DNA of 64,000 nt from assembly GCA_963737155.1 (NCBI GenBank), contig CAVTRN010000002.1, forward strand, positions 1,376,001 to 1,440,000, read 5' to 3'. Shown here piece after piece: positions 20,716-41,494 of the stretch (positions within the stretch are counted from its first letter, which is position 1; each line of letters opens with the position of its first letter). The position numbers and the translations under genes are program-made. Origin of the DNA: Nitrospirota bacterium (GTDB taxonomy: Bacteria > Nitrospirota > UBA9217). Under the pieces are notes generated by a model, which saw nothing but the letters and a program-made list of their open reading frames with translations, did not search any database and had not been told where the DNA came from.

Positions 20716-21282
20716 ATGAAACTAAGCGTATGGGCAAAGCAACAAGGTATAACCTATCAAGCGGCATGGAAATGGTGGAAGGCTGGCAAGCTGCCGGTTG
20801 AGGCTGAGCAGATGCCTACCGGAACCATCATTATAAAAGAGCAGAAAACTGCCCAAGGTTCTGTTGCTCTTTATGCCCGGGTATCCAGTCATGACCAAAA
20901 GAAAGACCTGGACGGGCAGCTCGGGCGGCTTTCCGTATATGCCGCTTCCAAAAGATTGTCAGTTTCAAAAGCGGTGTCTGAGGTTGGATCTGGTCTTAAT
21001 GGGCACAGGCCAAAACTCATGAAGCTGCTTGCCGACTCCAACGTCAGTATTATTGTCGCCTTGCATCGTGACCGGCTTATGCGGTTTGGATCTGAGTATG
21101 TAGAATCGGCACTTCGAGCTCAAGGTCGTCAATTTATTATTGTAGACCAGACCGAGCTAAAGGACGATCTGGTGCTGGACATGATTGAAGTATTGACATC
21201 GTTTTGCGCAAGGCTCTACGGACGCCGGTCAGCGGCCAATAAAGCAAAAAAAGCTCTGGAGGCCATGGAAAATGGCAAGTAA
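20716..21282 (+). CDS. tnpA: IS607 transposase (MerR-like HTH plus serine recombinase)
   Basis: MKLSVWAKQQGITY, YARVSSHDQKKDL, EVGSGLNG.R.KL, RDRLMRFG, FCARLYGRRSA. Confidence 0.96.
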   Translation: MKLSVWAKQQGITYQAAWKWWKAGKLPVEAEQMPTGTIIIKEQKTAQGSVALYARVSSHDQKKDLDGQLGRLSVYAASKRLSVSKAVSEVGSGLNGHRPKLMKLLADSNVSIIVALHRDRLMRFGSEYVESALRAQGRQFIIVDQTELKDDLVLDMIEVLTSFCARLYGRRSAANKAKKALEAMENGK

Positions 21283-22960
21283 TAAGGATAACAAGGCCAA
21301 GAGCGGCAAAAGTGAAACACTTTCTTTTACCGCTCAAACTTTGCTGATTGACATGTCTTACCTGGACACAAAGAAGTCTCTTTATCATGTTCTTGACGAT
21401 ATCGGCGACTCATACGGGCACATCAAACGCTCTCTCTTTAAAGACAGCGTTCGTTCCGGCAACAAACCCATTTCATTCAAAAATGAGTATCTTGTCAGGT
21501 ATGGTATCACCGCCCGGCAGTTTAACGCTATCCGCTACGATCTTGACGGCAATATCAGCTCCGCGGTTGAGGTATTAAAACTACGGATTGAAAAGCTCGA
21601 GCACAAAATAAAATCTGCGAGAAAATGGATTAAAACCAGAGAGAACAGTATCATTGACATACGCAAAGACAAAAAATTGTCCGAATATGAGAAAACGCCC
21701 AGCGTGAAGTCTCTCCGTTTTGCGGTCCATAACAAAAAACGGAAGCTCCATTCATCGGAGCAGAAACTGGAAAAGCTGAAATACGATTTGGACAAAGGCC
21801 GAATCAGGATTTGCTTTGGGACAAAGAAACTTTTCCACAAGCAGTTTAACCTTTCTGAAAACGGTTATAAATCCCACAATAACTGGCTGTCTGCCTGGAA
21901 GGCTGCCCGAAGCTCTTCATCGTTTTGTCTGGGATCGAAGGATGAAACGGCCGGCAACCAGACCTGCACGCTTGGCGTCGACGGGTCGCTCAGGATACGG
22001 GTCCCAAACTATCTTGCCAAAAAATACGGTAAACACATCATGGTGCCTACCGTAACATATCCTTACGGGCAGGAATATATTGAGCAGGCGCTCCTGTGCG
22101 GCCAGGCAATCACCCACCGGTTTGTCCGTGGCGAGAAAGGTTGGTATCTGTATTCATCGGTTGATATCCCCCAAAGAGAAACAGTAACCGGGAAACCGCA
22201 AGAAATCGGATGTATTGGTATAGATGTAAACGAAAAAGAGATTGCTGTTTCCGAGACTGACCGGTTCGGCAATTTTGTCTGGCACACAACGTATGCTGCA
22301 TGTATAAAAGACAGAACCACGGAACAGACCGAGGCAACTTACGGTGATATCTGCGTCGGCATTATCGACCGGTCAATTAAAACAGGGAAACCCGTCGCTC
22401 ATGAAACTCTTGACTTCGAAAAGAAGAAAGCATCTCTTAAAGAACAGGGAGTAACGTATGCGCGGATGCTATCCGGGTTCGCCTATTCCACCTTTTTAAA
22501 CATGCTTGACCGCAGAGCATATAAGGCAGGCGTCGGTGTGCTCTCCGTGAATCCTGCTTACACATCCGTTATCGGAAGAAACAATTATATGTCTTTTCAT
22601 GGCATCTCGCCGCATGAAGCAGCGGCGCTTGCTATCGCGAGAAGAGTTCAAGGATATTCCGAGTCTCCCATACCAAGCAGAACCGCCTCCCCTCTACCTG
22701 TAAGGAATCGAGAGGAGTACATCTGGAAGTTTTGGAGCAAGATGAGGACTCGGGGAGGTTGTGGAAATCATCACAGTCTCTACCAACGACGGTCCTTACA
22801 GGACTCCCCAGGCTGCGCTGAATTGCAGAAGAAGCCATCATCCCGTCGACAGCGCAATTCTCCGGGCCACCTGCCAGCAGCAGTCTTGCTAAAAAGGCGC
22901 CAGAAACAATCCCGATCAGCAAACAACGGGACTTGGGTGAATCAGGGCGGGAATCCCTGA
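21272..22960 (+). CDS. tnpB: IS607-associated TnpB-related protein (562 aa)
   Basis: FGTKKLF, GSKDETAGNQ, RuvC-I GIDVN, RuvC-II ETLDF, VNPAYTSVIG, HEAAALAIARR. Confidence 0.9.
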   Translation: MASNKDNKAKSGKSETLSFTAQTLLIDMSYLDTKKSLYHVLDDIGDSYGHIKRSLFKDSVRSGNKPISFKNEYLVRYGITARQFNAIRYDLDGNISSAVEVLKLRIEKLEHKIKSARKWIKTRENSIIDIRKDKKLSEYEKTPSVKSLRFAVHNKKRKLHSSEQKLEKLKYDLDKGRIRICFGTKKLFHKQFNLSENGYKSHNNWLSAWKAARSSSSFCLGSKDETAGNQTCTLGVDGSLRIRVPNYLAKKYGKHIMVPTVTYPYGQEYIEQALLCGQAITHRFVRGEKGWYLYSSVDIPQRETVTGKPQEIGCIGIDVNEKEIAVSETDRFGNFVWHTTYAACIKDRTTEQTEATYGDICVGIIDRSIKTGKPVAHETLDFEKKKASLKEQGVTYARMLSGFAYSTFLNMLDRRAYKAGVGVLSVNPAYTSVIGRNNYMSFHGISPHEAAALAIARRVQGYSESPIPSRTASPLPVRNREEYIWKFWSKMRTRGGCGNHHSLYQRRSLQDSPGCAELQKKPSSRRQRNSPGHLPAAVLLKRRQKQSRSANNGTWVNQGGNP

Positions 22961-30546: not shown

Positions 30547-31242
30547 CTACTGCCTATAGTTTCTGGTTAATTTATCCAGTGCTTCCTTCGCGGCTTTTTG
30601 TTCAGCTTCTTTTTTGTTTTTACCGATACCCCGGCCGTAGATCTCACCTTTGATTACCAGATCAATGGTGAATTGCTTAAAATGATCAGGACCGGTCTCG
30701 GCCGCGATGCGGTATTCGGGGAGCTGCTTCAATTGTTCCTGGCATAATTCCTGTATCTCCGTTTTATAGTCGAGCGTACTCCTTGATACGCAGGTTTTGT
30801 GTATCAGTTCCTCAAAAAAATGAATGACAAACTCTTTCGCTGCGATATTGCCACCGTCAAGATAAATAGAGGCGATCAACGCTTCGAGGCAGTCAGCAAG
30901 TAGCGAGTCCTTGTCTCTTCCACCGGTTTGCTCTTCGCCTCTTCCGAGCAGTAGGTAATTGCCAATGCCAATTTCACGGGCTATGGAGGCAAGGGCGGGT
31001 TCGCTCACCAGCGCAGCCCGAAGCCGGGAGAGATCGCCCTCGCTTGAGGCCGGGCACGCATTCATCATGTGTTCAGTGATGACCAGGCTTAGGACGGCAT
31101 CGCCCAGGAACTCGAGCCGCTCATTGTGGACGGACAGGCGATTTTCATTCGCGAAGGATTTGTGCGTCAGTGCCTGTTCGAGCAGCTCCCTATTCTCGAA
31201 GTGATAGCCGATGCGCTGTTGAATATCTAATAGGGGGGGCAT
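30547..31242 (-). CDS. rnc: Ribonuclease III
   Basis: ALTHKS, NERLEFLGDAVL, C-terminal dsRBD. Confidence 0.98.
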   Translation of the reverse strand: MPPLLDIQQRIGYHFENRELLEQALTHKSFANENRLSVHNERLEFLGDAVLSLVITEHMMNACPASSEGDLSRLRAALVSEPALASIAREIGIGNYLLLGRGEEQTGGRDKDSLLADCLEALIASIYLDGGNIAAKEFVIHFFEELIHKTCVSRSTLDYKTEIQELCQEQLKQLPEYRIAAETGPDHFKQFTIDLVIKGEIYGRGIGKNKKEAEQKAAKEALDKLTRNYRQ

Positions 31243-31243
31243 T

Positions 31244-32485
31244 CTATTTCCGGAACCGTCTGAAGATCAGGCAGGCATTTGTCCCGCCGAAACCAAAGGA
31301 GTTGGACATGGCCACATCCGCCTGAACCGTTCTCGACGTATGTGGAATGTAGTCCAGATCGCATTCCGGGTCGGGATTATCAAGATTGATGGTCGGCGGC
31401 AGAAGACCTCGGTCGAGGGCCAAAATGGTGATAACTGCCTCCACGCCGCCAGCGGCGCCGAGTAGGTGACCAATCATAGACTTCGTGGAGCTTATCGGTA
31501 TTTTGTAGGCATGGTCTCCAAAGACGGTCTTGATGGCGATTGACTCAAGCTCGTCACCGTATTTGGTCGATGTGCCATGGGCGTTGATATAGCCCATCTC
31601 CGCAGGGGATATGCCCGCGTCTTTGACAGCCATCTTCATGCATCGTGCTGCCCCTTCACCGTTCGGCGCTGGCGCTGTTATGTGATACGCGTCACCAGAG
31701 GCGCCGTAGCCGATCACCTCTGCATAGATGCGTGCGCCGCGCTTTTCGGCACACTCGAGGCCTTCAAGAACGACAACGCCCGAGCCTTCGCCCATGATGA
31801 ACCCGTCGCGCTCTGTGTCGAAAGGACGGCTTGCGCGTTGAGGTTCGTCGTTCCGCGTGGAGAGTGCCTTCATGGCGTTGAATCCACCGACGCCGAGCGG
31901 ACAGATACATGATTCAGTTCCGCCCGCGATTATCGCATCAGCATCGCCGCGCTCAATTGTCCTGAAAGCCTCACCGATGGAATGAGTGCCGGTCGCGCAG
32001 GCCGTTACCACGCAGATATTGGGGCCCTTTGCGCCATACCTGATGGAAAGAATACCGGCCGCTTCGTTGATAATGAGCATGGGGATGAAGAATGGGGTGA
32101 TTTTCCGGTATCCGCGTTCGAGGTATATCTTGTGATATTTCTCGATGGCAGGAAGTCCGCCCATGCCGGAGCTGACCATGATACCGACGCGTTCGGCGTT
32201 CTCCGGCGTGATTTTGATCCCCGAAGTATCCACGGCCATCTGGCTTGCGGCGATCGCCAGATGGATAAAGCGGTCCATTTTCTTTATTTCTTTCAGCTCG
32301 ATATAATTTTCCGGCACAAAACCATGGATATCGCCGGCAATCTGCGTCGGAATGCTTTTGTCATCGAACCGAGTTATAGGACCGATTCCCGAATTCCCGT
32401 TGATCAAGCCCGTCCAGCTTGTTTCCGTGTCAAGCCCGACCGGCGTGATCATGCCGATGCCGGTGACCACTACTCTTCTCTTCAA
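31244..32485 (-). CDS. fabF: Beta-ketoacyl-ACP synthase II
   Basis: TTG start after AGGAGG; [30 protein letters not shown]. Confidence 0.97.
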
Positions 32486-32611
32486 CGATGAATCCTCCTG
32501 GATAAAAATCCGAAAAGCCAAAAAATCCGCTCTCGCGTTTGCGGGATGGGTCTTCTGGCTTTTGGAATTTCGTACGAGATGATTATTTGGTAATTGGTAC
32601 TACGAACGCCG

Positions 32612-32848
32612 TTATTTTTGTTTTGCCTTGATGTAATCCGCTGCATTCTGGACAGTTGCGATCTTTTCAGCATCTTCATCAGGAATTTCGATGCCGAATT
32701 CCTCTTCAAGTGCCATAACCAGTTCCACTGTGTCGAGTGAATCGGCACCAAGATCGTTCACGAATGAGGCCTCAGGTTTCACATCTCCTTCGGGTACGCC
32801 GAGCTGCTCAGAAATGATTTTTTTTACTTTTGCGTCTATATCTGCCAT
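32612..32848 (-). CDS. acpP: Acyl carrier protein
   Basis: [20 protein letters not shown]. Confidence 0.98.
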
Positions 32849-32924
32849 TGTCATCCTCCTCCGGTAATGTGTCTATCTATGAGCCTCATGTATTTGATTC
32901 ATATTATTTAAATTAGATGGACTT

Positions 32925-33665
32925 CTACATGTACATTCCACCGTTCACGTGGATGACCTGACCGGTGATGTACGATGCCCACGGAGAAGCTAGGAAGCGG
33001 ACCGCGTTCGCGACATCTTCCGGCGTACCGAGTTTCCCCATGGGGATCTGTTTTGCGAGTTCCTGCCGGACATTCTCGGTTAGGGCTTGCGTCATTGCGG
33101 TTTCAATAAACCCCGGTGCAACGGCATTGGCCGTGATATTGCGGTTTGCATATTCCCGGGCAATAGTCTTGGTAAGACCGATGAGGCCGGCTTTGGATGC
33201 AACGTAATTCGCCTGGCCCGCGTTCCCCATGGCACCGACGATAGAGGCGATGTTAATGATGGTGCCTGATCTCTGTTTTGTCATGTATTTCAGAGCGGCT
33301 TTCGCGCAAAGAAAGGCGCCTTTCAAATTTATGCTGAGCACCAGATCCCAATCTTCGTCCTTCATCCGGAGAATGAGACCGTCGCGGGTGATACCAGCGT
33401 TGTTCACCAAGATGTCCACCCTGCCGAAATTTTCTACGACCTGTTCCATCATAGCGGTTACATCCGCGGACACGGCAACATTGGCCTTGAGAGCCAAGGT
33501 TTTTTTCCCTTTAGCCGCTATGTCCGCAGCGGTCTTTTGCGCCGCCTCGAGGTTGACGTCGCAAAGCGCGACATCGGCGCCATCATTCGCGAGCGCGAGC
33601 GTGATATCCCTGCCGATCCCCTGTGCCGCACCTGTGACAAGAGCTACTTTTCCGCTGAGACTCAT
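32925..33665 (-). CDS. fabG: 3-oxoacyl-ACP reductase
   Basis: TGAAQGIG, NNAGITRD, YVASK, VNGGM. Confidence 0.97.
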   Translation of the reverse strand: MSLSGKVALVTGAAQGIGRDITLALANDGADVALCDVNLEAAQKTAADIAAKGKKTLALKANVAVSADVTAMMEQVVENFGRVDILVNNAGITRDGLILRMKDEDWDLVLSINLKGAFLCAKAALKYMTKQRSGTIINIASIVGAMGNAGQANYVASKAGLIGLTKTIAREYANRNITANAVAPGFIETAMTQALTENVRQELAKQIPMGKLGTPEDVANAVRFLASPWASYITGQVIHVNGGMYM

Positions 33666-33740: not shown

Positions 33741-34673
33741 TTAAATTCCCAGAGCGCCAAGCGTGACATTCATGCTCTTTCTGTCTTCCACGTTCAACAC
33801 TTTTGCATCTTGTGCAATTTTTTTCACCAGGGAGGAGAGCACCTTGCCGGGCCCGATTTCGATGAAGGTGTCGAATCCCCGGGAAATCATGTTCCTGATT
33901 GAATCTTCCCAGTAAAGCGGCGAACTGATCTGCTTTATGAGCGATTGCCGTAGATCGGAGGCTTTCTCCAAAAACTTGGCATCCGCGTTGTTCACAATCG
34001 GAATGTTGAGGTCGCTGAGAACGACTTTTTCAAGTTCTTTTTCGAGCCGTTCACTGGCTTTTTTCATCATTATGCTATGCGATGGAACGCTTACCATCAA
34101 AGGGACTACTTTTTTTGCTCCTGCGGCTTTGGCGAGTTCCATGGCTTTTTCCACGGCCTGCTTTTCACCGGCAATGACGATCTGGCCAGGCGAGTTGTAA
34201 TTTGCAGGGGCAACTATACCATTTTTGGCAGCTTCAAGGCAAGTTTTTTCTACGTCGCTTCGCTCCATGCCCAGAATTGCGGCCATGAGTCCTGCTCCCG
34301 ATGGCACGGCTTCCTGCATGTACCTGCCTCGCTTTCTGACCAGCGCAATTGCGTCTTTGAGCTCAAATCCGCCCGCAGCGGTAATTGCCGTAAATTCTCC
34401 GAGACTATGGCCGACGGCCGCTTCAGCGGTTAAGCCTCTACGTTCTAGGGGCCTCAGGATCGCAATGCTTGCCGCGAGAATCGCCGGCTGAGTGTTTTCT
34501 GTCATGTTCAGCTGCTCAAGAGGTCCGGCCATGCACAGATGAACAAGATCATAACCTAGTACGGTACTGGCAACGTCGAATACCTCTTTCGACTCGCGGT
34601 AATATTCGATGAATTCCTTTGCCATGCCAGCATACTGAGATCCTTGGCCGGGGAACATAAACGCAATTTTCAT
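33741..34673 (-). CDS. fabD: Malonyl-CoA:ACP transacylase
   Basis: FPGQGSQ, GHSLGE, ANYNSP.Q, EIGPG.VL. Confidence 0.97.
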   Translation of the reverse strand: MKIAFMFPGQGSQYAGMAKEFIEYYRESKEVFDVASTVLGYDLVHLCMAGPLEQLNMTENTQPAILAASIAILRPLERRGLTAEAAVGHSLGEFTAITAAGGFELKDAIALVRKRGRYMQEAVPSGAGLMAAILGMERSDVEKTCLEAAKNGIVAPANYNSPGQIVIAGEKQAVEKAMELAKAAGAKKVVPLMVSVPSHSIMMKKASERLEKELEKVVLSDLNIPIVNNADAKFLEKASDLRQSLIKQISSPLYWEDSIRNMISRGFDTFIEIGPGKVLSSLVKKIAQDAKVLNVEDRKSMNVTLGALGI

Positions 34674-34696
34674 GAAATAACCCTGATATTAATTCA

Positions 34697-34767
34697 GCCG
34701 CAGATTTATACAGGTGCACGCAGATTTCCTTCGTTCCGACAGTCATTTTCTGCGGTTATCTGCTGCC
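34697..34767. repeat. 9-nt-periodic inverted repeat
   Basis: CGCAGATTT/ATACAGGTG/CACGCAGAT units opposed by TTCTGCGGT/TATCTGCTG. Confidence 0.4.
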
Positions 34768-34776
34768 AAAAAATTC

Positions 34777-35967
34777 TCATCCTCTCATTTCACGGATTTT
34801 CTTGATCATGATCGGAACAACTTCATGCACATCGCCAACAATGCCATAAGTGGCGACGTTAAAGATAGGCGCATCGGGATCCCTATTGATAGCCACGATG
34901 ACATCTGATGACTGCATACCGGCGACATGCTGGACTGCTCCGGAGATTCCGCAGGCGATATAGAGTTTGGGACAGACGGTTTTTCCTGTCTGTCCCACCT
35001 GGTGGGGATAAGGGATCCATCCTTCATCCACCGCTCCCCTAGTGGCTGCAACAGCGCCTCCTAGCACTTTTGCCAGCTCTTCAATCAGCTGGAAATTCGC
35101 GGCATTGCCGAGGCCGCGCCCTCCGGCCACGATGATGTCTGCCTCGCAGATGTTCACGGTTTCGCCCAGTGCTTCCACCGTTTTAATGACCTTGGTGCGC
35201 AGATTGTCTGACTGTGAGTACTTGATATCGATAATGTCACCTGTCCGGGAATCATCGCGAGGCGAGGGTTTCATAACTTTATGTCTGACTGTTGCCATTT
35301 GGGGGCGATGATTCGGTGTGACGATGGTAGCCATAATATTGCCGCCGAAGGCCGGGCGGGTCTGATGCAAGTTTCCGGTTTCCGCATCGATGTCGAGCAT
35401 GGTGCAATCGGCGGTAAGGCCGGTGCCAAGTGCTGAAGCGACTTTAGGAAAGAATGACCGGCCAATGGCTGTCGCGCCGGCGAGGATGATCTCGGGTTTG
35501 TGCTGTTTCGCGAGAGTGGTTAGGATCGCGGCATAGGAGTCATCATTGAAATCCTTCAGTGCAGCGTTGTCCGCTACATAGACGATGTCGGCTCCGTGCG
35601 CTATAAGGTCCTTAACCTGTCCCTTAATTCCGTGGCCGATAAAGACAGCGGATAGTTTGGTTTCCTTTTTGCCGGCGAGCTTCCTACCTTCCCCGAGAAG
35701 TTCCAGCGCGACGCTTGAGATGTCTCCCTTATGTTGTTCGGCGAAAACCCATACGCCCTTGTATGCCGAATGATCGACAGCAGGCGTTGCATCCTCACCG
35801 GTTCGCTCAATGGCCTTGAATTCGCAGACTTCAATGCAGGCACCGCACATGGTGCATGCTTCGGTAATATAGGCCTTGCCGTCGCGCATCTCGATTGCGC
35901 CAAACGGGCATGCAATTACGCACTTTTCGCAGGCTGTGCAGGTATCGGATATAATACGAACACTCAC
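34777..35967 (-). CDS. etfA: Electron transfer flavoprotein alpha subunit with N-terminal 2x[4Fe-4S] ferredoxin domain
   Basis: CTACEKCVIACP and CTMCGACIEVC; GLTADCT, RPAFGGN, QVGQTGKTV.P.LYIACGISGAVQH; GTG start after AAGGAG. Confidence 0.95.
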   Translation of the reverse strand: MSVRIISDTCTACEKCVIACPFGAIEMRDGKAYITEACTMCGACIEVCEFKAIERTGEDATPAVDHSAYKGVWVFAEQHKGDISSVALELLGEGRKLAGKKETKLSAVFIGHGIKGQVKDLIAHGADIVYVADNAALKDFNDDSYAAILTTLAKQHKPEIILAGATAIGRSFFPKVASALGTGLTADCTMLDIDAETGNLHQTRPAFGGNIMATIVTPNHRPQMATVRHKVMKPSPRDDSRTGDIIDIKYSQSDNLRTKVIKTVEALGETVNICEADIIVAGGRGLGNAANFQLIEELAKVLGGAVAATRGAVDEGWIPYPHQVGQTGKTVCPKLYIACGISGAVQHVAGMQSSDVIVAINRDPDAPIFNVATYGIVGDVHEVVPIMIKKIREMRG

Positions 35968-36060
35968 TGGGAACTCCTTGAAATTAGAATGCATCTAGCG
36001 GATTGCAGATGAAAGCCTGAAACGTTTTGCATCCAAGGTTTTGGCTTTATATGTCTTCTG

Positions 36061-36846
36061 CTAAATCAGCGACTGCTCTTTCAACTTCCGGACGAGCGTC
36101 GTTATCTGATCTTCCATATTTCCGGTCAGTATTTCTCTCTGTCCGCGGGGAGCAGGAGGGAATATCCTGACAACTTTCGTCGGCGACCCTTTCAACCCGC
36201 ATTTGTTCTCGTCCGCATTTATGTCTTTTGCGTTCCAAATCGTCACTTTGAGGCTTTTTGCTTTCATCTTGCCCCTGAGCGAGGGAACTCTAGGCTGGTT
36301 GATCTCCTTCACGACTGAAATAAGCGCGGGCAGGGACGTCTCAACCACGTCATGACCTTCGTCCATGAGACGCTCGACCACCATCTTATATCCCTTGACC
36401 TGTTCGATCTTCCTTATATAAGCGACAAAGGGGATGCCGAGCATGTCGGCGGTCTCGGGACCGACTTGAGCTGTATCGCCATCGATGGCCTGCTTACCGG
36501 CGATGATGAGGTCGAAGTCACCCAATTTTCTGATCCCCTGAGAAAGGGCGTAGGACGTGGCCCACGTATCGGCTCCCGCAAAGGACCTGTCGGACAGAAG
36601 AACCGCGTCGTCAACGCCCAGGGAGACGGCTTCCTTGAGCGCCTCTGCAGCCTGAGGCGGGCCCATAGTGAATGCGGTTACTTTGCCGCCATGTTTTTCA
36701 CGGAGTCGAAGGGCCTCTTCGATGGCATACATATCATAGGGATTGATGATGCTCGGCACACCATCGCGTATGAGCGTATTGGTTTCACGGTTGATCTTAA
36801 CTTCCGATGTATCCGGTACCTGTTTGACAAGTACTACGATATGCAT
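36061..36846 (-). CDS. etfB: Electron transfer flavoprotein beta subunit
   Basis: VKQVPDT, INPYD, MGPPQA, DRSFAGADTWATS, GKQAIDGDTAQVGP. Confidence 0.96.
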   Translation of the reverse strand: MHIVVLVKQVPDTSEVKINRETNTLIRDGVPSIINPYDMYAIEEALRLREKHGGKVTAFTMGPPQAAEALKEAVSLGVDDAVLLSDRSFAGADTWATSYALSQGIRKLGDFDLIIAGKQAIDGDTAQVGPETADMLGIPFVAYIRKIEQVKGYKMVVERLMDEGHDVVETSLPALISVVKEINQPRVPSLRGKMKAKSLKVTIWNAKDINADENKCGLKGSPTKVVRIFPPAPRGQREILTGNMEDQITTLVRKLKEQSLI

Positions 36847-36869
36847 GCGATTTCTCCGAAATCGAGCTT

Positions 36870-36946
36870 GAAAAGTCTAATGAGTCTAATGTATTGTTCG
36901 TTTTTATTACTCTTCAGACTCTATGAATTCTCAGATGTTCGACTCC
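36870..36946. repeat. 9-nt-periodic inverted repeat
   Basis: AAAAGTCTA/ATGAGTCTA units opposed by TACTCTTC/AGACTCTAT/GAATTCTCA. Confidence 0.45.
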
Positions 36947-36947
36947 T

Positions 36948-38105
36948 TTACTTCTGCCTTGTAACTTCCTTGATCATGTCGAGCGCAATGACGTTCCGCT
37001 GAATCTGGTTGGTGCCCTCATATATCTGTAGGATTTTCGCGTCGCGCATCATTTTCTCGACGGGGTATTCCCTCATATAACCTGAACCACCCATGATCTG
37101 GACCGCATCAGTCGTTACTTTCATCGCAGTGTCTGTTGCAAAGAGCTTGGCCATGGCTGAAGCACGGGAGACATCTTTGGCGCCGGTGTCCACGAAGCGT
37201 GCCACCGAATAGACGAGCGACCGGGCCGCTTCGGTCATGGTTTGCATGTCTGCCAGCATGTGCTGGATGGCTTGGAAGGACGTAATAGGCTGGCCGAACT
37301 GGACTCGCTGTTTGGCAAACTTGATCGCTTCGTCGATGGCCCCCTGAGCTACACCAACTCCCTGGGCGCCTACACCTGTCCGGGAACTGTCAAGGGTCTT
37401 CATGGCGACGATGAAACCCATGCCTTCCTTTGCGATGAGATTTTCCTTGGGGATACGGCAATTGCTGAAAATGAGTTCGGTTGTGGATGAAGCCCGGATT
37501 CCCATTTTGTTCTCTTTTTTCCCGAAGGTGAATCCAGGAGTGCCCTTTTCGACGATGAAGGCCGATGCTCCCCGGGCGCCCTTCGATCTGTCGGTAATGG
37601 CAATGATAGTGTAAATTCCTGCCTCGCCGCCGTTCGTGATCCACTGTTTGGTGCCATTTAGCACATACTCATTTCCTTCGAGATTCGCAGTGGTTTGAAC
37701 GCCACCGGCGTCGCTGCCGGCATTCGCCTCGGTGAGGCCGAAGGCTACGAAACGCTTCCCCGATGCGATATCGGGAAGATATTTCTTCTTATGCGCATCT
37801 GTTCCATAGAGCAGAATGGGGTAGGTGCCGAGTGCGTTTGCCGCATAGCTCGTCGAGACGCCGACACATGCCTTGGAAAGCTCCTCAACGGTGATGCAGA
37901 GTTCCAGGGATTTTTTACCCAGCCCTCCGTACTCTTCGGGGATGTAGAGTGCGAGAAGGTCGGCCTGTGCCAGTGCCTTCATGATGTCCGAAGGGAATTT
38001 GTTGTGTTCGTCGAGCTCGGCGCGTACGGGAACGACCTTCTCAACGGCGATTTGCCGGGCGAGGTCGCGTATCATGATCTGTTCTTCAGTCAGCAAATAG
38101 TCCAT
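36948..38105 (-). CDS. Acyl-CoA dehydrogenase (butyryl-CoA dehydrogenase/CarC-like)
   Basis: FGLTEANAGSDA, NGTKQWITNG, KMGIRAS, QFGQPI, MGGSGY, IYEGTNQIQ (catalytic Glu). Confidence 0.96.
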   Translation of the reverse strand: MDYLLTEEQIMIRDLARQIAVEKVVPVRAELDEHNKFPSDIMKALAQADLLALYIPEEYGGLGKKSLELCITVEELSKACVGVSTSYAANALGTYPILLYGTDAHKKKYLPDIASGKRFVAFGLTEANAGSDAGGVQTTANLEGNEYVLNGTKQWITNGGEAGIYTIIAITDRSKGARGASAFIVEKGTPGFTFGKKENKMGIRASSTTELIFSNCRIPKENLIAKEGMGFIVAMKTLDSSRTGVGAQGVGVAQGAIDEAIKFAKQRVQFGQPITSFQAIQHMLADMQTMTEAARSLVYSVARFVDTGAKDVSRASAMAKLFATDTAMKVTTDAVQIMGGSGYMREYPVEKMMRDAKILQIYEGTNQIQRNVIALDMIKEVTRQK

Positions 38106-38147
38106 GGAGCCCTCCGATAACTATGAAAATGAACGATAAGAATACTG

Positions 38148-39128
38148 TTACCATCTCACCAGGGCAGATGCCCAGGTGAGACCTCCACCGAAAGCTTCAA
38201 ACAGGAGGAGATGGTTTTCTTTTATCCTGCCATCGCGGACTGCTTCATCAAGAGCCATCGGAATCGACGCTGCGGACGTATTCCCGTATTTGGGAAGTGT
38301 GAGAACGACTTTTTCCATCGGCATATTGAGACGCTGCGCCATGGCCTTTATGATTCTAAGATTCGCTTGGTGCGGCACGAGGTAGTCGATCTCTTCGGGC
38401 TTGACCTTGTTGTACTCAAGGGCTTCCTGCACGACACCCTCAAGCGCCCGTACAGCAGTTTTGAAAGTTTCGTTGCCTTTCATTTTTATAAAGTGCATCC
38501 GCCTACGGATAGTATCATGGGATGCTGGGTGCTGGGCGCCGCCGGCGGAAACATGAATCAAATCCTGAAGAGAACCATCGGAATGAAGATGGGTCGAGAG
38601 TATTCCTCGCTTGCCGGCATGCCGCTGTATCACGACCGCACCCGCACCGTCTCCGAAAAGAATGCATGTTGTGCGGTCCTCCCAGTCTGTGAACCGCGAA
38701 AGAACTTCTGCCCCGACGAGAAGGATGTTATTATACATGCCGGCGACGATGAATGCACTTGCAACGGACATTCCGTAGATGAACCCGGAGCAGGCAGCAT
38801 AGATGTCGAATGCGGCCGCTTTTTTTGCACCGAGCTTTTCCTGGAGCACGCAGCCCAAGCTTGGCAGGATCATGTCGGGCGTCATCGTGGCCACAAGAAC
38901 AAGGTCAAGTTCGTCCGGACCGAGTCCTGCAGCCTTGAGGGCCTTTTTGCTAGCTTCGTAAGCCAGGTCCGAGGTCGTCTGTCCTTTTTCGGCGATTCTT
39001 CGTTCCTTAATGCCGGTGCGTTCGGTGATCCATTGATCGCTGGTATCTACGAGCTTTTCCAGATCGTGATTGGAAATGACTTTTTTTGGTGCATAGGACC
39101 CGGTTCCTGTTATCAGTGCGTGGACCAT
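38148..39128 (-). CDS. fabH: Beta-ketoacyl-ACP synthase III
   Basis: AACSGF, LFGDGAGA, PHQAN, GNTSAAS, FGGGLTW. Confidence 0.97.
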   Translation of the reverse strand: MVHALITGTGSYAPKKVISNHDLEKLVDTSDQWITERTGIKERRIAEKGQTTSDLAYEASKKALKAAGLGPDELDLVLVATMTPDMILPSLGCVLQEKLGAKKAAAFDIYAACSGFIYGMSVASAFIVAGMYNNILLVGAEVLSRFTDWEDRTTCILFGDGAGAVVIQRHAGKRGILSTHLHSDGSLQDLIHVSAGGAQHPASHDTIRRRMHFIKMKGNETFKTAVRALEGVVQEALEYNKVKPEEIDYLVPHQANLRIIKAMAQRLNMPMEKVVLTLPKYGNTSAASIPMALDEAVRDGRIKENHLLLFEAFGGGLTWASALVRW

Positions 39129-40138
39129 TTGGTTTTGGTAAGCTCCATATTCTTTCCGATGTCATCGCGTATGCGTTTATTGACCTCGCTCATTGCGAGT
39201 TCGGTGGCAACACGGATTGCGTTTTTAATAGCTCGAGCGGACGAGCGGCCGTGACTGATGATGCTGATACCGTTTATGCCGATGAGGGGCGCCCCGCCGT
39301 ATTCCGCGTAATCGACGCGGTGTCTGAGTGAGTTGAAGGCCGGCCGCATCAGCAGATAGCCGAGTTTGTTGATTAAGCTCTTTTCAATGTCCTTGCGGAG
39401 AAACGTCCCAATTGCTTCAGCGACAGCCTCGGAGACCTTGAGGACGACATTTCCGATGAAACCATCGCAAACGATCACGTCCGCTTTACCTGACATGACA
39501 TCGCGTCCTTCGACGTTCCCGATGAAATTCAACGAAGTTTCGGTAAGGAGCTTGAATGCTTCCTTGGTTAATTCGTTACCCTTCGTTTCCTCTTCACCAA
39601 TGGACAAAAGCCCAACTCGAGGATTCGGATTTTTCAGGAGGTACCTGGCATATACATCACCCATGACCGCGAACTGCAAAAGGTGATTCGGTTTGCAATC
39701 AACATTTGCACCCATGTCGAGGATGATGGATGTTCCCGTGATCGTCGGCATGAAAGTGGCTATGGCAGGACGCTCCACGCCTTCAATCCTGCCAAGTACA
39801 AAGAGCGACGTCGACATGGCCGCACCGGTATGGCCCGCGCTGATGACTGCGGATGCTTCTCCGTTTTTCACCAATTCATTGGCTACTCGGATAGATGAGT
39901 CTTTCTTTCTGCGAAAGACCGTGGCGGGAGAATCATGCATGTCCACCACTTCCGTTGCATTCAGAATTTCAAGAGGGAGTACTTTCGCGGACGGGTACTT
40001 GTCGAGTTCTTGCCGGACAAGCTGTTCAATGCCGACAAGGATGATGCCAACTCCCAACTCCTGAGCGGCCAGTACCGAACCCGCAACAATGGCCTGTGGT
40101 GCGTTGTCTCCCCCCATCGTATCAACGGCAATCTTCAT
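39113..40138 (-). CDS. plsX: Phosphate acyltransferase PlsX
   Basis: IAVD.MGGD.AP, SAGHTGA, LDMGAN, DGFIGNV.LK, HGRSS. Confidence 0.97.
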   Translation of the reverse strand: MKIAVDTMGGDNAPQAIVAGSVLAAQELGVGIILVGIEQLVRQELDKYPSAKVLPLEILNATEVVDMHDSPATVFRRKKDSSIRVANELVKNGEASAVISAGHTGAAMSTSLFVLGRIEGVERPAIATFMPTITGTSIILDMGANVDCKPNHLLQFAVMGDVYARYLLKNPNPRVGLLSIGEEETKGNELTKEAFKLLTETSLNFIGNVEGRDVMSGKADVIVCDGFIGNVVLKVSEAVAEAIGTFLRKDIEKSLINKLGYLLMRPAFNSLRHRVDYAEYGGAPLIGINGISIISHGRSSARAIKNAIRVATELAMSEVNKRIRDDIGKNMELTKTKWSTH

Positions 40139-40417: not shown

Positions 40418-40933
40418 TTATTTTTTTAGTAAATCTTTTAACGCTGAAAATGCACCGAAGTCTCCCGGTGCATTTCGCTGATGACCACATTCTGTTTTAT
40501 TTAGGTCCGTCCCACAGACACTGCAAAGTCCTTTACACCCGGGATTATGCAGCGGTACCATGGGAATGGATATCATCAACTGTTCTTTGATGATATCCAA
40601 AGGTTCAATTTCATCGCCATCGTAAAACTCCATGTCCATTTCGCCGCTGACAAGTTCATATTCGCCATCGGTGTCAATGGAATTTATCGGTGCAAGGTCG
40701 AAATTTAATTCCGTATCAATGTCAAAAGTGAAGCGCTCCAAGCATCGGCTGCATTCCAGTAGGGGCTGGGCCTTTACCTGCCCTGAGATATGCAGAATGC
40801 CGCCTTTCATCGGTTTGATGCTGAAAACAGCTGTAAATGAAGTAGATTTTGTCCCAGTATCGAATAGATCGATCGGCTGCCCAAGCTTCAGTGTTAGCCC
40901 TTGCGGCGGTATATCATTGATATTGATTACCAT
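40418..40933 (-). CDS. yceD: DUF177/YceD family protein
   Basis: CSRCL, P..PL....CKGLCSVCG.DLN; position upstream of rpmF. Confidence 0.93.
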   Translation of the reverse strand: MVININDIPPQGLTLKLGQPIDLFDTGTKSTSFTAVFSIKPMKGGILHISGQVKAQPLLECSRCLERFTFDIDTELNFDLAPINSIDTDGEYELVSGEMDMEFYDGDEIEPLDIIKEQLMISIPMVPLHNPGCKGLCSVCGTDLNKTECGHQRNAPGDFGAFSALKDLLKK

Positions 40934-41494
40934 TTCTTTTACTCCAAGGGCTGTAAGTGACGAATTATATAGAGAAGCTCCCGATTTGTCAAGAAAAAAT
41001 AAAAAATGCCGATATCCTTATTGATCAATGTCTCGATTTGTCGAAAGTGAAATACCGCCAAGTCAGGAACCATCAATGTTCCACGTCTGGCAATCTCCAA
41101 CGAATCGGAAGCCTTTCTTGAATAGATCCCTGCGCGAAACAAGTGCTTTTGACTAGAGCATGCTCGTATCGGCAAAGATTGTTGCCAGCGATGTGTTTGT
41201 CTTTATCATTTTGGGAATCCTTGATACAGACCGTAAAGGGCTGTTTCTAAAGTGCATGTCGTATTGATGGGGGGCATGTTCGTGCAATTGCATTATGCTC
41301 ATGCAGGTTATGTTCCCATGTCTTCTCAACCGCAAGGCATAAAATAGATGCGGTCTAACTGCCGGACGAGGGAAAAAGGGAAAAACCGCACGAGCGGCGA
41401 AAGACCTTGACCACACTCGCCGATTAGGCAGAACAGTCTCAACGTGTACCCGGAGAAAATAGCGCGGAGGGAAAAGAATAACACCCGGCAGAAA

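What the first reader, a model, noticed from the sequence alone, without database searches (positions are those of the whole stretch)
33741..39128. Bifurcating-type acyl-CoA dehydrogenase/EtfAB module embedded in the core fatty-acid synthesis operon
Seen: on one strand the order is yceD-rpmF-plsX-fabH-acd-etfB-etfA-fabD-fabG-acpP-fabF-rnc, with gaps of only 42-103 bp and no obvious terminator inside the insert. No fabI/fabK/fabL/fabV appears anywhere in the window. EtfA carries an N-terminal 2x[4Fe-4S] domain, and EtfB has FAGADTWATS and AIDGDTAQVGP. Established: this architecture matches electron-bifurcating clostridial Bcd-EtfAB and Acetobacterium CarCDE, which reduce enoyl-CoA and ferredoxin with NADH; fabH-fabD are normally adjacent; ACAD-fold enzymes acting on acyl-ACP are known from PKS/mycobactin pathways. 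Inference: this could be an undescribed FAS step, namely (a) an electron-bifurcating enoyl-ACP reductase replacing FabI and yielding reduced ferredoxin each elongation cycle, (b) a supplier of butyryl or branched acyl-CoA primers to the adjacent FabH, or (c) an anaerobic acyl-ACP dehydrogenation route to unsaturated lipids.
Basis: partly seen in the sequence, partly recalled or inferred. Interest (0 to 1): 0.85.

Follow-up and report, generated by a model that had tools for sequence, protein, structure and literature searches.

The report
Flavoprotein module replacing enoyl-ACP reductase
A butyryl-CoA-dehydrogenase-like enzyme and its electron-transfer flavoprotein sit inside the fatty-acid synthesis operon of a bacterium with no known enoyl-ACP reductase, so they probably perform that missing step in a way not described before.

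Summary
The minus strand carries yceD-rpmF-plsX-fabH-acd-etfB-etfA-fabD-fabG-acpP-fabF-rnc behind one perfect sigma-70 promoter. EtfA has an N-terminal 2x[4Fe-4S] domain, and EtfAB is closest to bifurcating ETFs (CarDE).

The 100%-complete genome has no FabI, FabK, FabL or FabV. FabD, FabH, FabG, FabZ, FabF and AcpP are present.

In 201 Nitrospirota genomes the candidate reductases split almost without overlap:
- 65 have FabI.
- 3 have FabK only.
- 21 have a FabL-like SDR with a Y-x6-K motif.
- 110 have the Fd-EtfA orthologue, 109 of them also the Acd orthologue, one copy each.
- 2 could not be assigned.

FabK and the FabL-like SDR lie directly upstream of fabD, and so does etfBA (91 of 110). 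The fab-linked arrangement recurs in MAGs labelled as at least six other phyla.

Best reading (about 0.65): Acd-EtfAB is the enoyl-ACP reductase of type II fatty-acid synthesis here, and it may also reduce ferredoxin. This rests on comparative genomics only.

Caveats:
- Modules 69-72% identical coexist with FabI in 6 of 8 Bacillota genomes.
- The closest characterised relatives use short CoA esters.
- ACP use, chain-length range and bifurcation are untested.

Ten literature searches found no prior report.

The parts
40964..40992 (-). sigma-70-type promoter (TTGACA-17-TATAAT) upstream of yceD; likely start of the operon
   Evidence: 12 of 12 consensus matches. The total number of promoter-like sites in the region is at chance level, so this one site is suggestive only.
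40418..40933 (-). yceD (DUF177)
   Evidence: PF02620, 86 bits
40216..40398 (-). rpmF (ribosomal protein L32)
   Evidence: PF01783, 87.5 bits
39113..40138 (-). plsX phosphate acyltransferase
   Evidence: TIGR00182, 397 bits (cut-off 243)
38148..39128 (-). fabH, beta-ketoacyl-ACP synthase III
   Evidence: TIGR00747, 449 bits (cut-off 292)
36948..38105 (-). acd: Bcd-like acyl-CoA-dehydrogenase-fold flavoprotein, proposed catalytic subunit of the enoyl-thioester reductase. E363 in the YEGT motif is invariant.
   Evidence: three ACAD domains; best solved relative 5ol2_C, C. difficile Bcd, 418 bits; E363 invariant in 24 fab-linked sequences; one orthologue per genome in 109 of 201 Nitrospirota genomes
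36061..36846 (-). etfB: ETF small subunit of the bifurcating type
   Evidence: 209-266 bits to the five bifurcating ETFs (6fah_B CarD is best), against 81-91 bits to non-bifurcating ETFs
34777..35994 (-). etfA: ETF large subunit with a fused N-terminal ferredoxin domain
   Evidence: full-length match to CarE (6fah_A, 409 bits, query residues 11-400); one orthologue per genome.
35800..35967 (-). 2x[4Fe-4S] ferredoxin domain of EtfA (residues about 10-65)
   Evidence: Fer4 families, residues 12-62; both Cys motifs aligned with CarE
33741..34673 (-). fabD, malonyl-CoA:ACP transacylase; the gene most constantly adjacent to etfA
   Evidence: TIGR00128, 337 bits; etfA-fabD gap of 500 bp or less in 91 of 110 genomes
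32925..33665 (-). fabG, 3-oxoacyl-ACP reductase
   Evidence: TIGR01830, 338 bits (cut-off 298)
32612..32854 (-). acpP, acyl carrier protein (DSLD motif)
31244..32521 (-). fabF, beta-ketoacyl-ACP synthase II. The listed TTG start may be about 13 codons too early.
   Evidence: TIGR03150, 660 bits, match starts at residue 15
30547..31242 (-). rnc, ribonuclease III; last gene of the conserved block
   Evidence: TIGR02191, 267 bits

Best explanation
Acd with EtfB and Fd-EtfA is the enoyl-thioester reductase of type II fatty-acid synthesis in this Nitrospirota bacterium. It stands in for FabI, FabK, FabL or FabV without being related to any of them.

Proposed mechanism, by analogy with the Bcd-EtfAB and CarCDE complexes:
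- NADH reduces the FAD in EtfB.
- One electron path runs through the FAD of EtfA to the FAD of Acd, which reduces trans-2-enoyl-ACP to acyl-ACP at the conserved Glu363 site.
- The other path may run through the two [4Fe-4S] clusters fused to EtfA to an external ferredoxin.
- If so, each elongation cycle would spend 2 NADH and return one reduced ferredoxin.

Shown here: the gene content, the missing ENR, the synteny, the mutual exclusion, and the closeness of the proteins to bifurcating ETF complexes.

Inferred: the reductase role, ACP rather than CoA as the carrier, the acceptance of C4-C18 chains, and bifurcation.
For: 1. The own genome (100% complete, 2 contigs) has FabD, FabH, FabG, FabF and AcpP and FabZ, but no known ENR.
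- FabI model NF005717: best hit 69 bits, which is FabG itself. E. coli FabI scores 293 bits on this model.
- FabL model: best hit 187 bits, on a paralogue whose own best model is FabG at 305 bits, above that model's cut-off.
- FabV: 0 matches.
- FabK: best hit 138 bits, inside a 2792-aa PKS-like ORF; cut-off 453.
- All 8 own SDRs aligned carry the classical YxxxK motif at the catalytic position. None carries the Y-x6-K motif of FabI there.

2. Phylum sample of 201 genomes.
- FabI at 229-342 bits in 65 genomes: families f5-f10 and f18.
- FabK above its cut-off in 4 genomes: f2 3 of 3, plus G048.
- FabL-like SDR orthologue in 21 genomes: f16 18 of 18, f20, f28 and G205.
- Acd orthologue (72-92% identity, one per genome) in 109, and Fd-EtfA in 110, all in the remaining families.
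- Among the 110 module genomes: 0 have a strong FabI, 0 have FabK above its cut-off, and 0 have the FabL-like orthologue.
- 2 of the 201 genomes could not be assigned.

3. Same position in the operon.
- FabK lies directly upstream of fabD in 4 of 4 genomes.
- The FabL-like SDR (Y-x6-K motif; best model FabL; best structure 3oic) lies between fabH and fabD in G138, and next to fabD in 10 of the 10 genomes I could compare.
- etfA lies within 500 bp of fabD in 91 of 110 genomes. 99 of these had a listed FabD row.
- In closed genomes where acd has moved away, etfB-etfA-fabD stays together as a trio.

4. Spread across phyla. 41 of the 80 best Acd loci are fab-linked. They come from MAGs labelled Nitrospirota, Thermodesulfobacteriota/'delta', Rokuibacteriota, Omnitrophota, Actinomycetota, Saganbacteria and Pseudomonadota. 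In those 41 genomes FabI-like hits occur in 2 (157 and 170 bits), and FabK above its cut-off in 0.

5. A separate catabolic set exists in the own genome: a second EtfBA without the Fd domain, two ACAD paralogues at 35-36% identity, and two FadB-thiolase clusters.

6. EtfAB groups with structurally characterised bifurcating ETFs, and Acd with C. difficile Bcd.
Against: - There is no biochemical or expression evidence of any kind.
- The nearest characterised enzymes (Bcd, CarC, and AcrC by model) act on short or aromatic CoA esters. An ENR must handle C4-C18 acyl-ACP. I found no sequence feature that shows a deeper pocket or ACP docking.
- Modules 69-72% identical, with Fd-EtfA in 7 of the 8, stand away from fab genes in 8 Bacillota genomes, and 6 of these 8 also have a good FabI at 273-299 bits. 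So this enzyme type need not be the sole ENR and may have another role.
- Of the 41 fab-linked genomes from many phyla, 5 have strong FabK-like genes (260-358 bits) and 2 have weak FabI-like genes.
- Three genomes of the own family have FabK-like hits of 191-258 bits.
- acd itself is within 3 kb of etfA in only 60 of 109 genomes; it lies on another contig in 39 and far away in 10.
- The families in the phylum sample are related to one another, so the number of independent gains and losses is small, perhaps 3 to 5.
- ENRs of an unknown kind, for example MDR-type enzymes, were not searched for.
Confidence: 0.65

Rival explanations
1. An ordinary catabolic or fermentative butyryl/acyl-CoA dehydrogenase-EtfAB complex lies in the fab operon for historical or regulatory reasons. 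The true ENR would be an undiscovered enzyme elsewhere.
For: - The closest solved relatives are CoA-dependent Bcd and CarC.
- Modules 69-72% identical coexist with FabI and are not fab-linked in 6 of 8 Bacillota genomes.
- acd is often unlinked from etfBA.
Against: - etfBA-fabD adjacency holds in 91 of 110 genomes, and fab linkage recurs in MAGs labelled as several phyla.
- The module is a single copy in almost every genome of exactly those families that lack every known ENR, with 0 of 110 overlapping.
- The own genome has a separate ETF, ACAD paralogues and FadB-thiolase clusters for beta-oxidation.
- No crt, hbd or thl genes lie next to the module.
Confidence: 0.15
2. The FabX-like NMO flavoprotein, or another NMO or PKS ER domain, is the real enoyl-ACP reductase, and Acd-EtfAB does something else.
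For: - A FabX/FabK-family gene is conserved in many relatives: hits in 27 of the 41 fab-linked genomes.
- It is 80-81% identical in 2 closed Nitrospirota genomes.
- FabX and FabK belong to one family (passages of PMC8626469).
Against: - The protein matches H. pylori FabX over its full length (227 bits), against 73 bits for FabK. FabX is a dehydrogenase/isomerase, not a reductase.
- It is interrupted by a 1-nt frameshift in the own assembly.
- It was not found in 14 of the 41 fab-linked genomes, including two records titled 'chromosome'.
- It was not found in 3 of 5 single-contig Nitrospirota genomes that carry the module.
- The ER domain in the 2792-aa ORF was seen in few relatives.
Confidence: 0.08
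3. The module makes butyryl-CoA or branched acyl-CoA primers for the adjacent FabH.
For: acd is adjacent to fabH in the own operon. The Bcd-type enzyme is expected to prefer short chains.
Against: - This leaves the ENR step empty.
- The constant neighbour is fabD, not fabH.
- No thiolase, hbd or crt gene is linked.
- A straight C4 primer offers no obvious gain over acetyl-CoA (inference).
Confidence: 0.05
4. The module works in the oxidative direction as an acyl-ACP dehydrogenase that feeds anaerobic unsaturated fatty-acid synthesis (a FabX-like 'backtracking' route), with confurcation of electrons to NAD+.
For: ACADs normally oxidise. No FabA-FabB pair was noted. The own FabX-like gene is frameshifted.
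Against: - The ENR would still be missing.
- A FabX homologue exists in many carriers.
- The mutual exclusion is with reductases (FabI, FabK, FabL-like), not with desaturation genes.
Confidence: 0.05

Closest known systems
CarCDE, caffeyl-CoA reductase-Etf complex of Acetobacterium woodii (PDB 6FAH)
   Same: - EtfB matches CarD at 266 bits.
- EtfA matches CarE at 409 bits over its full length, including the N-terminal 2x[4Fe-4S] domain.
- Acd matches CarC at 312 bits.
- It has the same three-subunit layout of an ACAD plus an ETF.
   Different: CarC reduces an aromatic enoyl-CoA in caffeate respiration (recalled). Here the genes lie inside the FAS II operon and the genome lacks an ENR. Acd is closer to Bcd (418 bits) than to CarC.
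Bcd-EtfAB, the bifurcating butyryl-CoA dehydrogenase complex of Clostridioides difficile (5OL2) and Acidaminococcus fermentans (4L1F, 4KPU)
   Same: These are the best solved relative of Acd (5ol2_C, 418 bits) and close relatives of EtfAB. The catalytic Glu lies in the same YEGT motif.
   Different: The clostridial EtfA has no ferredoxin domain; its match starts at query residue 78-81. Those genes belong to butyrate fermentation with crt, hbd and thl (recalled). Here no such genes are linked, and the neighbours are fabH and fabD.
FabK, FabI, FabL and FabV, the four known enoyl-ACP reductase families
   Same: The proposed role is the same. FabK and a FabL-like SDR hold the same position directly upstream of fabD in other Nitrospirota genomes.
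   Different: There is no homology. Acd has the ACAD fold and needs a separate ETF. The known ENRs are SDR enzymes or a TIM-barrel flavoprotein that take NAD(P)H directly.
FabX of Helicobacter pylori (7E1Q)
   Same: Both are flavoproteins with Fe-S clusters proposed to act on acyl/enoyl-ACP in FAS II.
   Different: FabX belongs to the NMO family and is a dehydrogenase/isomerase. A FabX homologue is encoded separately in this lineage and is frameshifted in the own assembly.
ACAD-fold enzymes acting on carrier-protein thioesters (MbtN, PigA/RedW)
   Same: These set a precedent for the ACAD fold accepting carrier-protein-bound substrates.
   Different: The relation is weak: MbtN model 85 bits (cut-off 700), RedW 258 bits (cut-off 650), PigA 239 bits (cut-off 500). 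Those enzymes oxidise, and they belong to secondary metabolism.

Membership tests
Bifurcating ACAD-EtfAB complexes (Bcd-EtfAB / CarCDE type) | ACAD-fold dehydrogenase with a catalytic Glu in the C-terminal YEGT motif | tested here: met
   Three ACAD Pfam domains. E363 is invariant in 24 fab-linked sequences and aligns with the same motif in 5ol2_C and 4l1f_A. That this Glu is the catalytic base is recalled.
Bifurcating ACAD-EtfAB complexes (Bcd-EtfAB / CarCDE type) | EtfA and EtfB group with bifurcating ETFs rather than with respiratory ETFs | tested here: met
   EtfB scores 209-266 bits to the five bifurcating ETFs, against 81-91 bits to the others. EtfA scores 289-409 bits, against about 150 bits.
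Bifurcating ACAD-EtfAB complexes (Bcd-EtfAB / CarCDE type) | N-terminal 2x[4Fe-4S] domain on EtfA (CarE subtype) | tested here: met
   Fer4 families at residues 12-62. Both Cys motifs align with CarE.
Bifurcating ACAD-EtfAB complexes (Bcd-EtfAB / CarCDE type) | NADH-dependent reduction of the enoyl thioester coupled to ferredoxin reduction | not testable with these tools
   This needs an anoxic enzyme assay.
Bifurcating ACAD-EtfAB complexes (Bcd-EtfAB / CarCDE type) | The substrate is a CoA thioester | not testable with these tools
   The genomic context points to ACP, but no sequence test could settle it.
Acryloyl-CoA reductase AcrABC (NCBIfam equivalogs) | Scores above the curated cut-offs | tested here: not met
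   AcrC 474 bits against a cut-off of 640; AcrB 242 against 475; AcrA 354 against 600.
Known enoyl-ACP reductases (FabI, FabL, FabV, FabK) | Homology to one of the four families | tested here: not met
   Acd and EtfAB have unrelated folds. No gene in the genome reaches these models.
Enoyl-ACP reductase as a function | It is the only candidate for the step in a genome with an otherwise complete FAS II, and it is exclusive with other ENRs among relatives | tested here: met
   for the own genome. for the phylum sample: 0 of 110 overlap with a strong FabI, FabK or FabL-like gene.
Enoyl-ACP reductase as a function | Catalyses reduction of trans-2-enoyl-ACP across C4-C18 | not testable with these tools
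   There is no assay. The closest characterised relatives prefer short chains.
ACAD-type acyl-ACP dehydrogenases (MbtN) | Score above the curated cut-off | tested here: not met
   85 bits against a cut-off of 700.

The most novel reading that the evidence does not exclude
Acd-EtfB-FdEtfA is a flavin-based electron-bifurcating enoyl-ACP reductase. Every elongation cycle of fatty-acid synthesis would oxidise two NADH, reduce enoyl-ACP, and deliver a low-potential reduced ferredoxin through the clusters fused to EtfA.

Lipid synthesis in many anaerobes (Thermodesulfovibrionia and MAGs labelled Thermodesulfobacteriota, Rokuibacteriota, Omnitrophota and others) would then recover part of the large free-energy drop of the enoyl reduction. 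This would be a fifth ENR class, unrelated in fold to the other four.
Probability: 0.4. Interest if true: 0.92.

Novelty: new variant of a known kind. Interest (0 to 1): 0.82.

Why it matters
The enoyl-ACP reductase step is the most variable step of bacterial type II fatty-acid synthesis. It is a classical drug target, and four enzyme families are known for it.

An ACAD/ETF-based reductase would be a fifth, mechanistically unrelated solution. It would fill a gap in the annotation of a whole class of Nitrospirota (110 of 201 sampled genomes) and of anaerobes from several other phyla.

If it bifurcates, it would link anabolic lipid synthesis to the ferredoxin pool. That bears on the energy budgets of energy-limited anaerobes and on how lipid hydrogen-isotope signatures are read.

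The idea is directly testable, because a MAG titled Thermodesulfovibrio, a genus that I recall has cultured members, carries the Acd orthologue (L051; its etfBA context was not seen).

Tried and rejected
- Complex prediction of an Acd dimer with AcpP, both given as alignments A1 and A2. It returned no verdict (score 0.00, controls not run). It is not used for or against binding.

- Search for expression data. No RNA holder was listed, only partial DNA holders in soil metagenomes. Co-transcription could therefore not be examined.

- Contigs of four runs laid on the FabX-like locus. One contig of a relative about 95% identical carries one extra base at L002:2095, inside a short A run, which restores the frame. 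The contigs that are 99% or more identical do not cover the site. Whether the frameshift is real or an assembly error stays open.

- Acd tree.
  - One row, L085, was dropped because of an in-frame stop.
  - The two own paralogues used as outgroups had branches of about 8 changes per site and one was misplaced, so the root is not usable.
  - The tree shows a Nitrospirota plus 'delta' group (support 96) and a separate group of unlinked Bacillota and PVC rows (support 98). It neither proves nor rules out a single origin of fab linkage.

- Group-specific residues.
  - R17 and R28 are present in 97% of 68 linked or Nitrospirota sequences. They are Ala in the 6 Bacillota sequences whose genomes have FabI.
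  - The two solved bifurcating Bcds have V/A and A/V at these positions. R17 also occurs in actinobacterial acyl-CoA dehydrogenases.
  - There are few independent contrasts and I have no coordinates to place the residues, so this is kept as a lead only.

- FabV search on the 41 handles at E <= 1e-5. The control rang in no genome, so that blank is uninformative. The searches at E <= 0.01 had a ringing control.

- Literature. Ten searches combined enoyl-ACP reductase, bifurcation, ETF, acyl-CoA dehydrogenase, fab gene names and Thermodesulfovibrio. None found a paper describing an ACAD/ETF-type ENR or etf genes in fab operons.
  - PMC4916218 was read in passages and is irrelevant.
  - PMC8626469 was read in passages.
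  - All other papers were seen as listings only.
  - Subscription journals and supplements were not searchable.

Full report
**What is there.** The window is G000:C2:1376001-1440000 of a 4.84-Mb genome in two contigs, rated 100% complete. Its nearest relatives are MAGs labelled Nitrospirota or Thermodesulfovibrionia.

On the minus strand, ORF listing and Pfam/NCBIfam scans give yceD, rpmF, plsX, fabH, an acyl-CoA-dehydrogenase-fold gene (acd), etfB, etfA, fabD, fabG, acpP, fabF and rnc.
- The gaps are 42, 101, 66 and 103 bp around the three inserted genes.
- plsX and fabH overlap.
- A perfect TTGACA-17-TATAAT promoter lies just upstream of yceD.
- No convincing minus-strand terminator lies inside the insert. 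The overall counts of such sites are at chance level, so this is weak evidence.
All of them align with CarE and CarD of the caffeyl-CoA reductase complex.

**What the three proteins resemble.**
- Acd is most like the Bcd subunit of the C. difficile bifurcating complex (5ol2_C, 418 bits). It keeps the Glu of the YEGT motif, E363, which is invariant in 24 fab-linked sequences. No NCBIfam equivalog is reached; AcrC scores 474 bits against a cut-off of 640.
- EtfB scores 209-266 bits against the five solved bifurcating ETFs, and 81-91 bits against respiratory ETFs.
- EtfA scores 289-409 bits against about 150 bits, and only CarE matches it over its full length, ferredoxin domain included.

By sequence, this is a CarCDE/Bcd-EtfAB-type complex.

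**Is an ordinary enoyl-ACP reductase present elsewhere?** None was found.
- I took E. coli FabI from an annotated record to find the FabI models. It scores 293 bits on NF005717. The own genome's best score on that model is 69 bits, and that hit is FabG.
- The FabL model peaks at 187 bits on a FabG paralogue. That paralogue's own best model is FabG, above its cut-off, and FabG itself scores 180 bits on the FabL model.
- The FabV domain has no match (the control rang).
- FabK peaks at 138 bits inside a 2792-aa PKS-like ORF, then at 76 bits, against a cut-off of 453.
- The genome has only about ten SDR genes. In an alignment with E. coli FabI, all eight that I aligned have the classical YxxxK at the catalytic position, and none has Y-x6-K there. 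That Y156 and K163 are the catalytic pair is recalled.
- FabZ is present.

FAS II is thus complete except for the reductase.

**The 76-bit FabK-like hit.**
- In the own assembly it is split by a frameshift.
- In a relative it is an intact 367-aa NMO-family protein.
- That protein matches H. pylori FabX (7E1Q) over its full length at 227 bits, against 73 bits for FabK. Passages of PMC8626469 confirm that 7E1Q is FabX, a decanoyl-ACP dehydrogenase/isomerase.
- A contig of a strain about 95% identical has one more base in a short A run at the break. Identical-strain contigs do not cover it.
- FabX-like genes were not found in 14 of 41 fab-linked genomes, including two records titled 'chromosome'. 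They were also not found in 3 of 5 single-contig Nitrospirota genomes that carry the module.

So this protein cannot be the general reductase of these lineages.

**Conservation of the arrangement.** A scan of species-representative genomes with Acd kept the best 80 of at least 592 confirmed loci. I mapped the twelve window proteins onto them.
- 41 loci have fab genes beside acd.
- Full or nearly full operons with acd-etfB-etfA between fabH (or plsX) and fabD (or fabG) occur in MAGs labelled Nitrospirota, Thermodesulfobacteriota/Deltaproteobacteria, Rokuibacteriota, Omnitrophota, Actinomycetota, Saganbacteria and Pseudomonadota. In a few of them the module lies after rnc or fabF instead.
- In the genomes of those 41 loci, FabI-like hits at E <= 1e-30 occur in 2 (157 and 170 bits).
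- FabK above its cut-off occurs in 0, and strong FabK-like genes (260-358 bits) in 5.
- FabV occurs in 0, but the control did not ring at that threshold.

**A phylum-wide table.** I searched the same 201 Nitrospirota genomes (200 plus the own genome; 193 are at least 90% complete and at most 5% contaminated) seven times.
- FabI: 68 genomes at E <= 1e-30. Of these, 65 score 229-342 bits and make up families f5, f6, f7, f8, f10 and f18 entirely, and 41 of 43 in f9.
- Acd orthologue (E <= 1e-120, 72-92% identity, exactly one match per genome): 109 genomes. These are 35 of 37 in f1 plus the own genome, and every sampled genome of f3, f4, f11-f15, f17, f19 and f21-f27. There is none in the FabI families.
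- Fd-EtfA: the same families, 110 genomes at 53% identity or more, one each. Four weaker hits lack the ferredoxin domain.
- FabK above its cut-off: f2 (3 of 3) and G048.
- f16 (18 genomes) had none of these. Its representative G138 has yceD-rpmF-plsX-fabH-[271-aa SDR]-fabD-fabG-acpP-fabF-rnc. The SDR's best model is FabL, its best structure is B. subtilis FabL (3oic), and it has Y-x6-K aligned with the FabI pair.
- Orthologues of that SDR occur in 21 genomes: f16 18 of 18, f20, f28, and one f9 genome that lacks FabI.
- There is no real FabV. The 17 marginal hits score 23 bits or less, and 14 of them fall on the f16 SDR itself.

The partition is 65 FabI, 3 FabK only, 21 FabL-like, 110 Acd/Etf and 2 unassigned. 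The unassigned ones are G146, which is 90% complete and also lacks a detectable fabD, and one f9 genome.

Among the 110 module genomes none has a strong FabI, FabK above its cut-off, or the FabL-like orthologue. The exceptions to note are:
- one weak FabI-like hit (G106, 151 bits);
- three f1 genomes with FabK-like hits of 191-258 bits.

**Same position in the operon.**
- FabK ends 24-217 bp upstream of fabD in all four FabK genomes.
- The FabL-like SDR is next to fabD in 10 of the 10 genomes I could compare.
- etfA lies within 500 bp of fabD in 91 of 110 genomes. For 11 genomes the FabD row was cut from the table, 6 have the two genes on different contigs (several at contig ends), and 2 are 2.5-2.8 kb apart.
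- acd is less fixed: within 3 kb of etfA in 60 of 109 genomes, elsewhere on the same contig in 10, and on another contig in 39.
- In closed genomes where acd has moved (G054, 380 kb away; G118, 4 kb away on the other strand), etfB-etfA-fabD persists as a trio.

Three unrelated enzyme systems therefore alternate at one operon position, directly upstream of fabD, within one phylum. Two of them are enoyl-ACP reductases by homology. From memory, clostridial fab operons carry fabK at the same place.

**Is the module needed for catabolism instead?** The own genome has a second EtfBA without the ferredoxin domain (29-33% identity). It also has two ACAD paralogues (35-36% identity) and two FadB-type plus thiolase clusters, one of them beside an ACAD paralogue. 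Beta-oxidation thus has its own parts. No crotonase, 3-hydroxyacyl-CoA dehydrogenase or thiolase gene lies beside the module in any of the 80 loci.

**Evidence that cuts the other way.**
- Eight Bacillota genomes hold acd-etfB-etfA (Fd domain matched in 7 of the 8) at 69-72% identity without fab neighbours, and six of them also have a good FabI at 273-299 bits. None has FabK above its cut-off.
- This fits the pattern (unlinked copies coexist with an ENR, linked ones do not), and bacteria with two ENRs are known (recalled). It also shows that this enzyme type is not diagnostic by sequence, and that it sits very close to enzymes that may use CoA esters.
- The quick tree puts most of those Bacillota rows (5 of 8), together with four unlinked PVC rows, in one supported group (98). 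The Nitrospirota and 'delta' rows form another (96). The root and deep nodes are unresolved.
- I found no sequence feature that proves ACP docking or a longer acyl pocket. Two arginines (R17, R28) separate the linked and Nitrospirota set from the six Bacillota sequences whose genomes have FabI, but the contrasts are few and R17 also occurs in actinobacterial acyl-CoA dehydrogenases.
- The families in the phylum sample are kin, so the table reflects a handful of evolutionary events and not 201 independent trials.

**Mechanism proposed.**
- Shown: the gene content, the missing step, the exclusivity, the shared operon position, and the membership of EtfAB among bifurcating ETFs by sequence.
- Inferred: NADH enters at the EtfB flavin. 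One electron path goes by the EtfA flavin to Acd-FAD, which reduces trans-2-enoyl-ACP. The other goes by the fused [4Fe-4S] clusters to ferredoxin, as proposed for CarCDE and Bcd-EtfAB (recalled).
- A non-bifurcating mode is equally compatible with the data. In it, NADH or reduced ferredoxin would simply feed Acd.

**Novelty.** Ten full-text searches found no description of an ACAD/ETF enoyl-ACP reductase or of etf genes in fab operons. Subscription journals and supplements were outside the search.

The machine itself is of a known kind. Its recruitment as the FAS II reductase would be new and would add a fifth ENR class.

I put the ENR reading at about 0.65 and true bifurcation in that role at about 0.4.

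Noticed in passing
own genome C1:1116433-1117493 (L002:1228-2330, minus strand); outside the window: A FabX-like NMO flavoprotein gene with a Cys-rich C-terminal part is split by a 1-nt frameshift in a short A run. It is intact (367 aa) in relative G004, and a related-strain contig has the extra base. This is either an assembly error or a real pseudogene.
   Followed up: partly
own genome C2:1550084-1556170; about 110 kb beyond the window end: A single 2792-aa ORF has a FabK-like ER domain, then KS-like, AT-like and KR-like parts. It looks like a PUFA-synthase or PKS-like lipid megasynthase. A similar 2495-aa ORF occurs in G011.
   Followed up: no
own genome C2:1319198-1322044; about 54 kb before the window start: A 2663-aa ORF contains an ACAD-like domain. 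An EtfA C-terminal-like stretch lies about 2 kb away. This is an unusual fusion or neighbourhood and was not examined.
   Followed up: no
own genome C2:1221507-1225164: A second small fab-like cluster holds two KS genes, a FabZ/FabA-like dehydratase and a FabG paralogue that is above the FabG cut-off. It is probably a specialised lipid or polyene pathway.
   Followed up: no
G138 (L110:8853-9668) and 20 other Nitrospirota genomes: A 271-aa SDR with a Y-x6-K motif lies between fabH and fabD. It is below the FabL and FabI cut-offs (158 and 111 bits). It looks like a divergent ENR clade that current models would name only 'SDR family oxidoreductase'.
   Followed up: partly
window 21272-22960 (+): A 562-aa ORF has no Pfam match at E <= 1e-5.
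   Followed up: no
window 38211-39254 (+): A 347-aa ORF lies antisense to fabH and plsX. It is almost certainly a shadow frame of the highly scoring genes on the other strand.
   Followed up: no
L028 and other 'MFD' long-contig MAG loci: Several neighbouring genes (pmbA/tldD, zinc ADH, DeoC aldolase) are shorter than in L025. This suggests indel errors in those assemblies, so frameshifts in such MAGs should be read with care.
   Followed up: no
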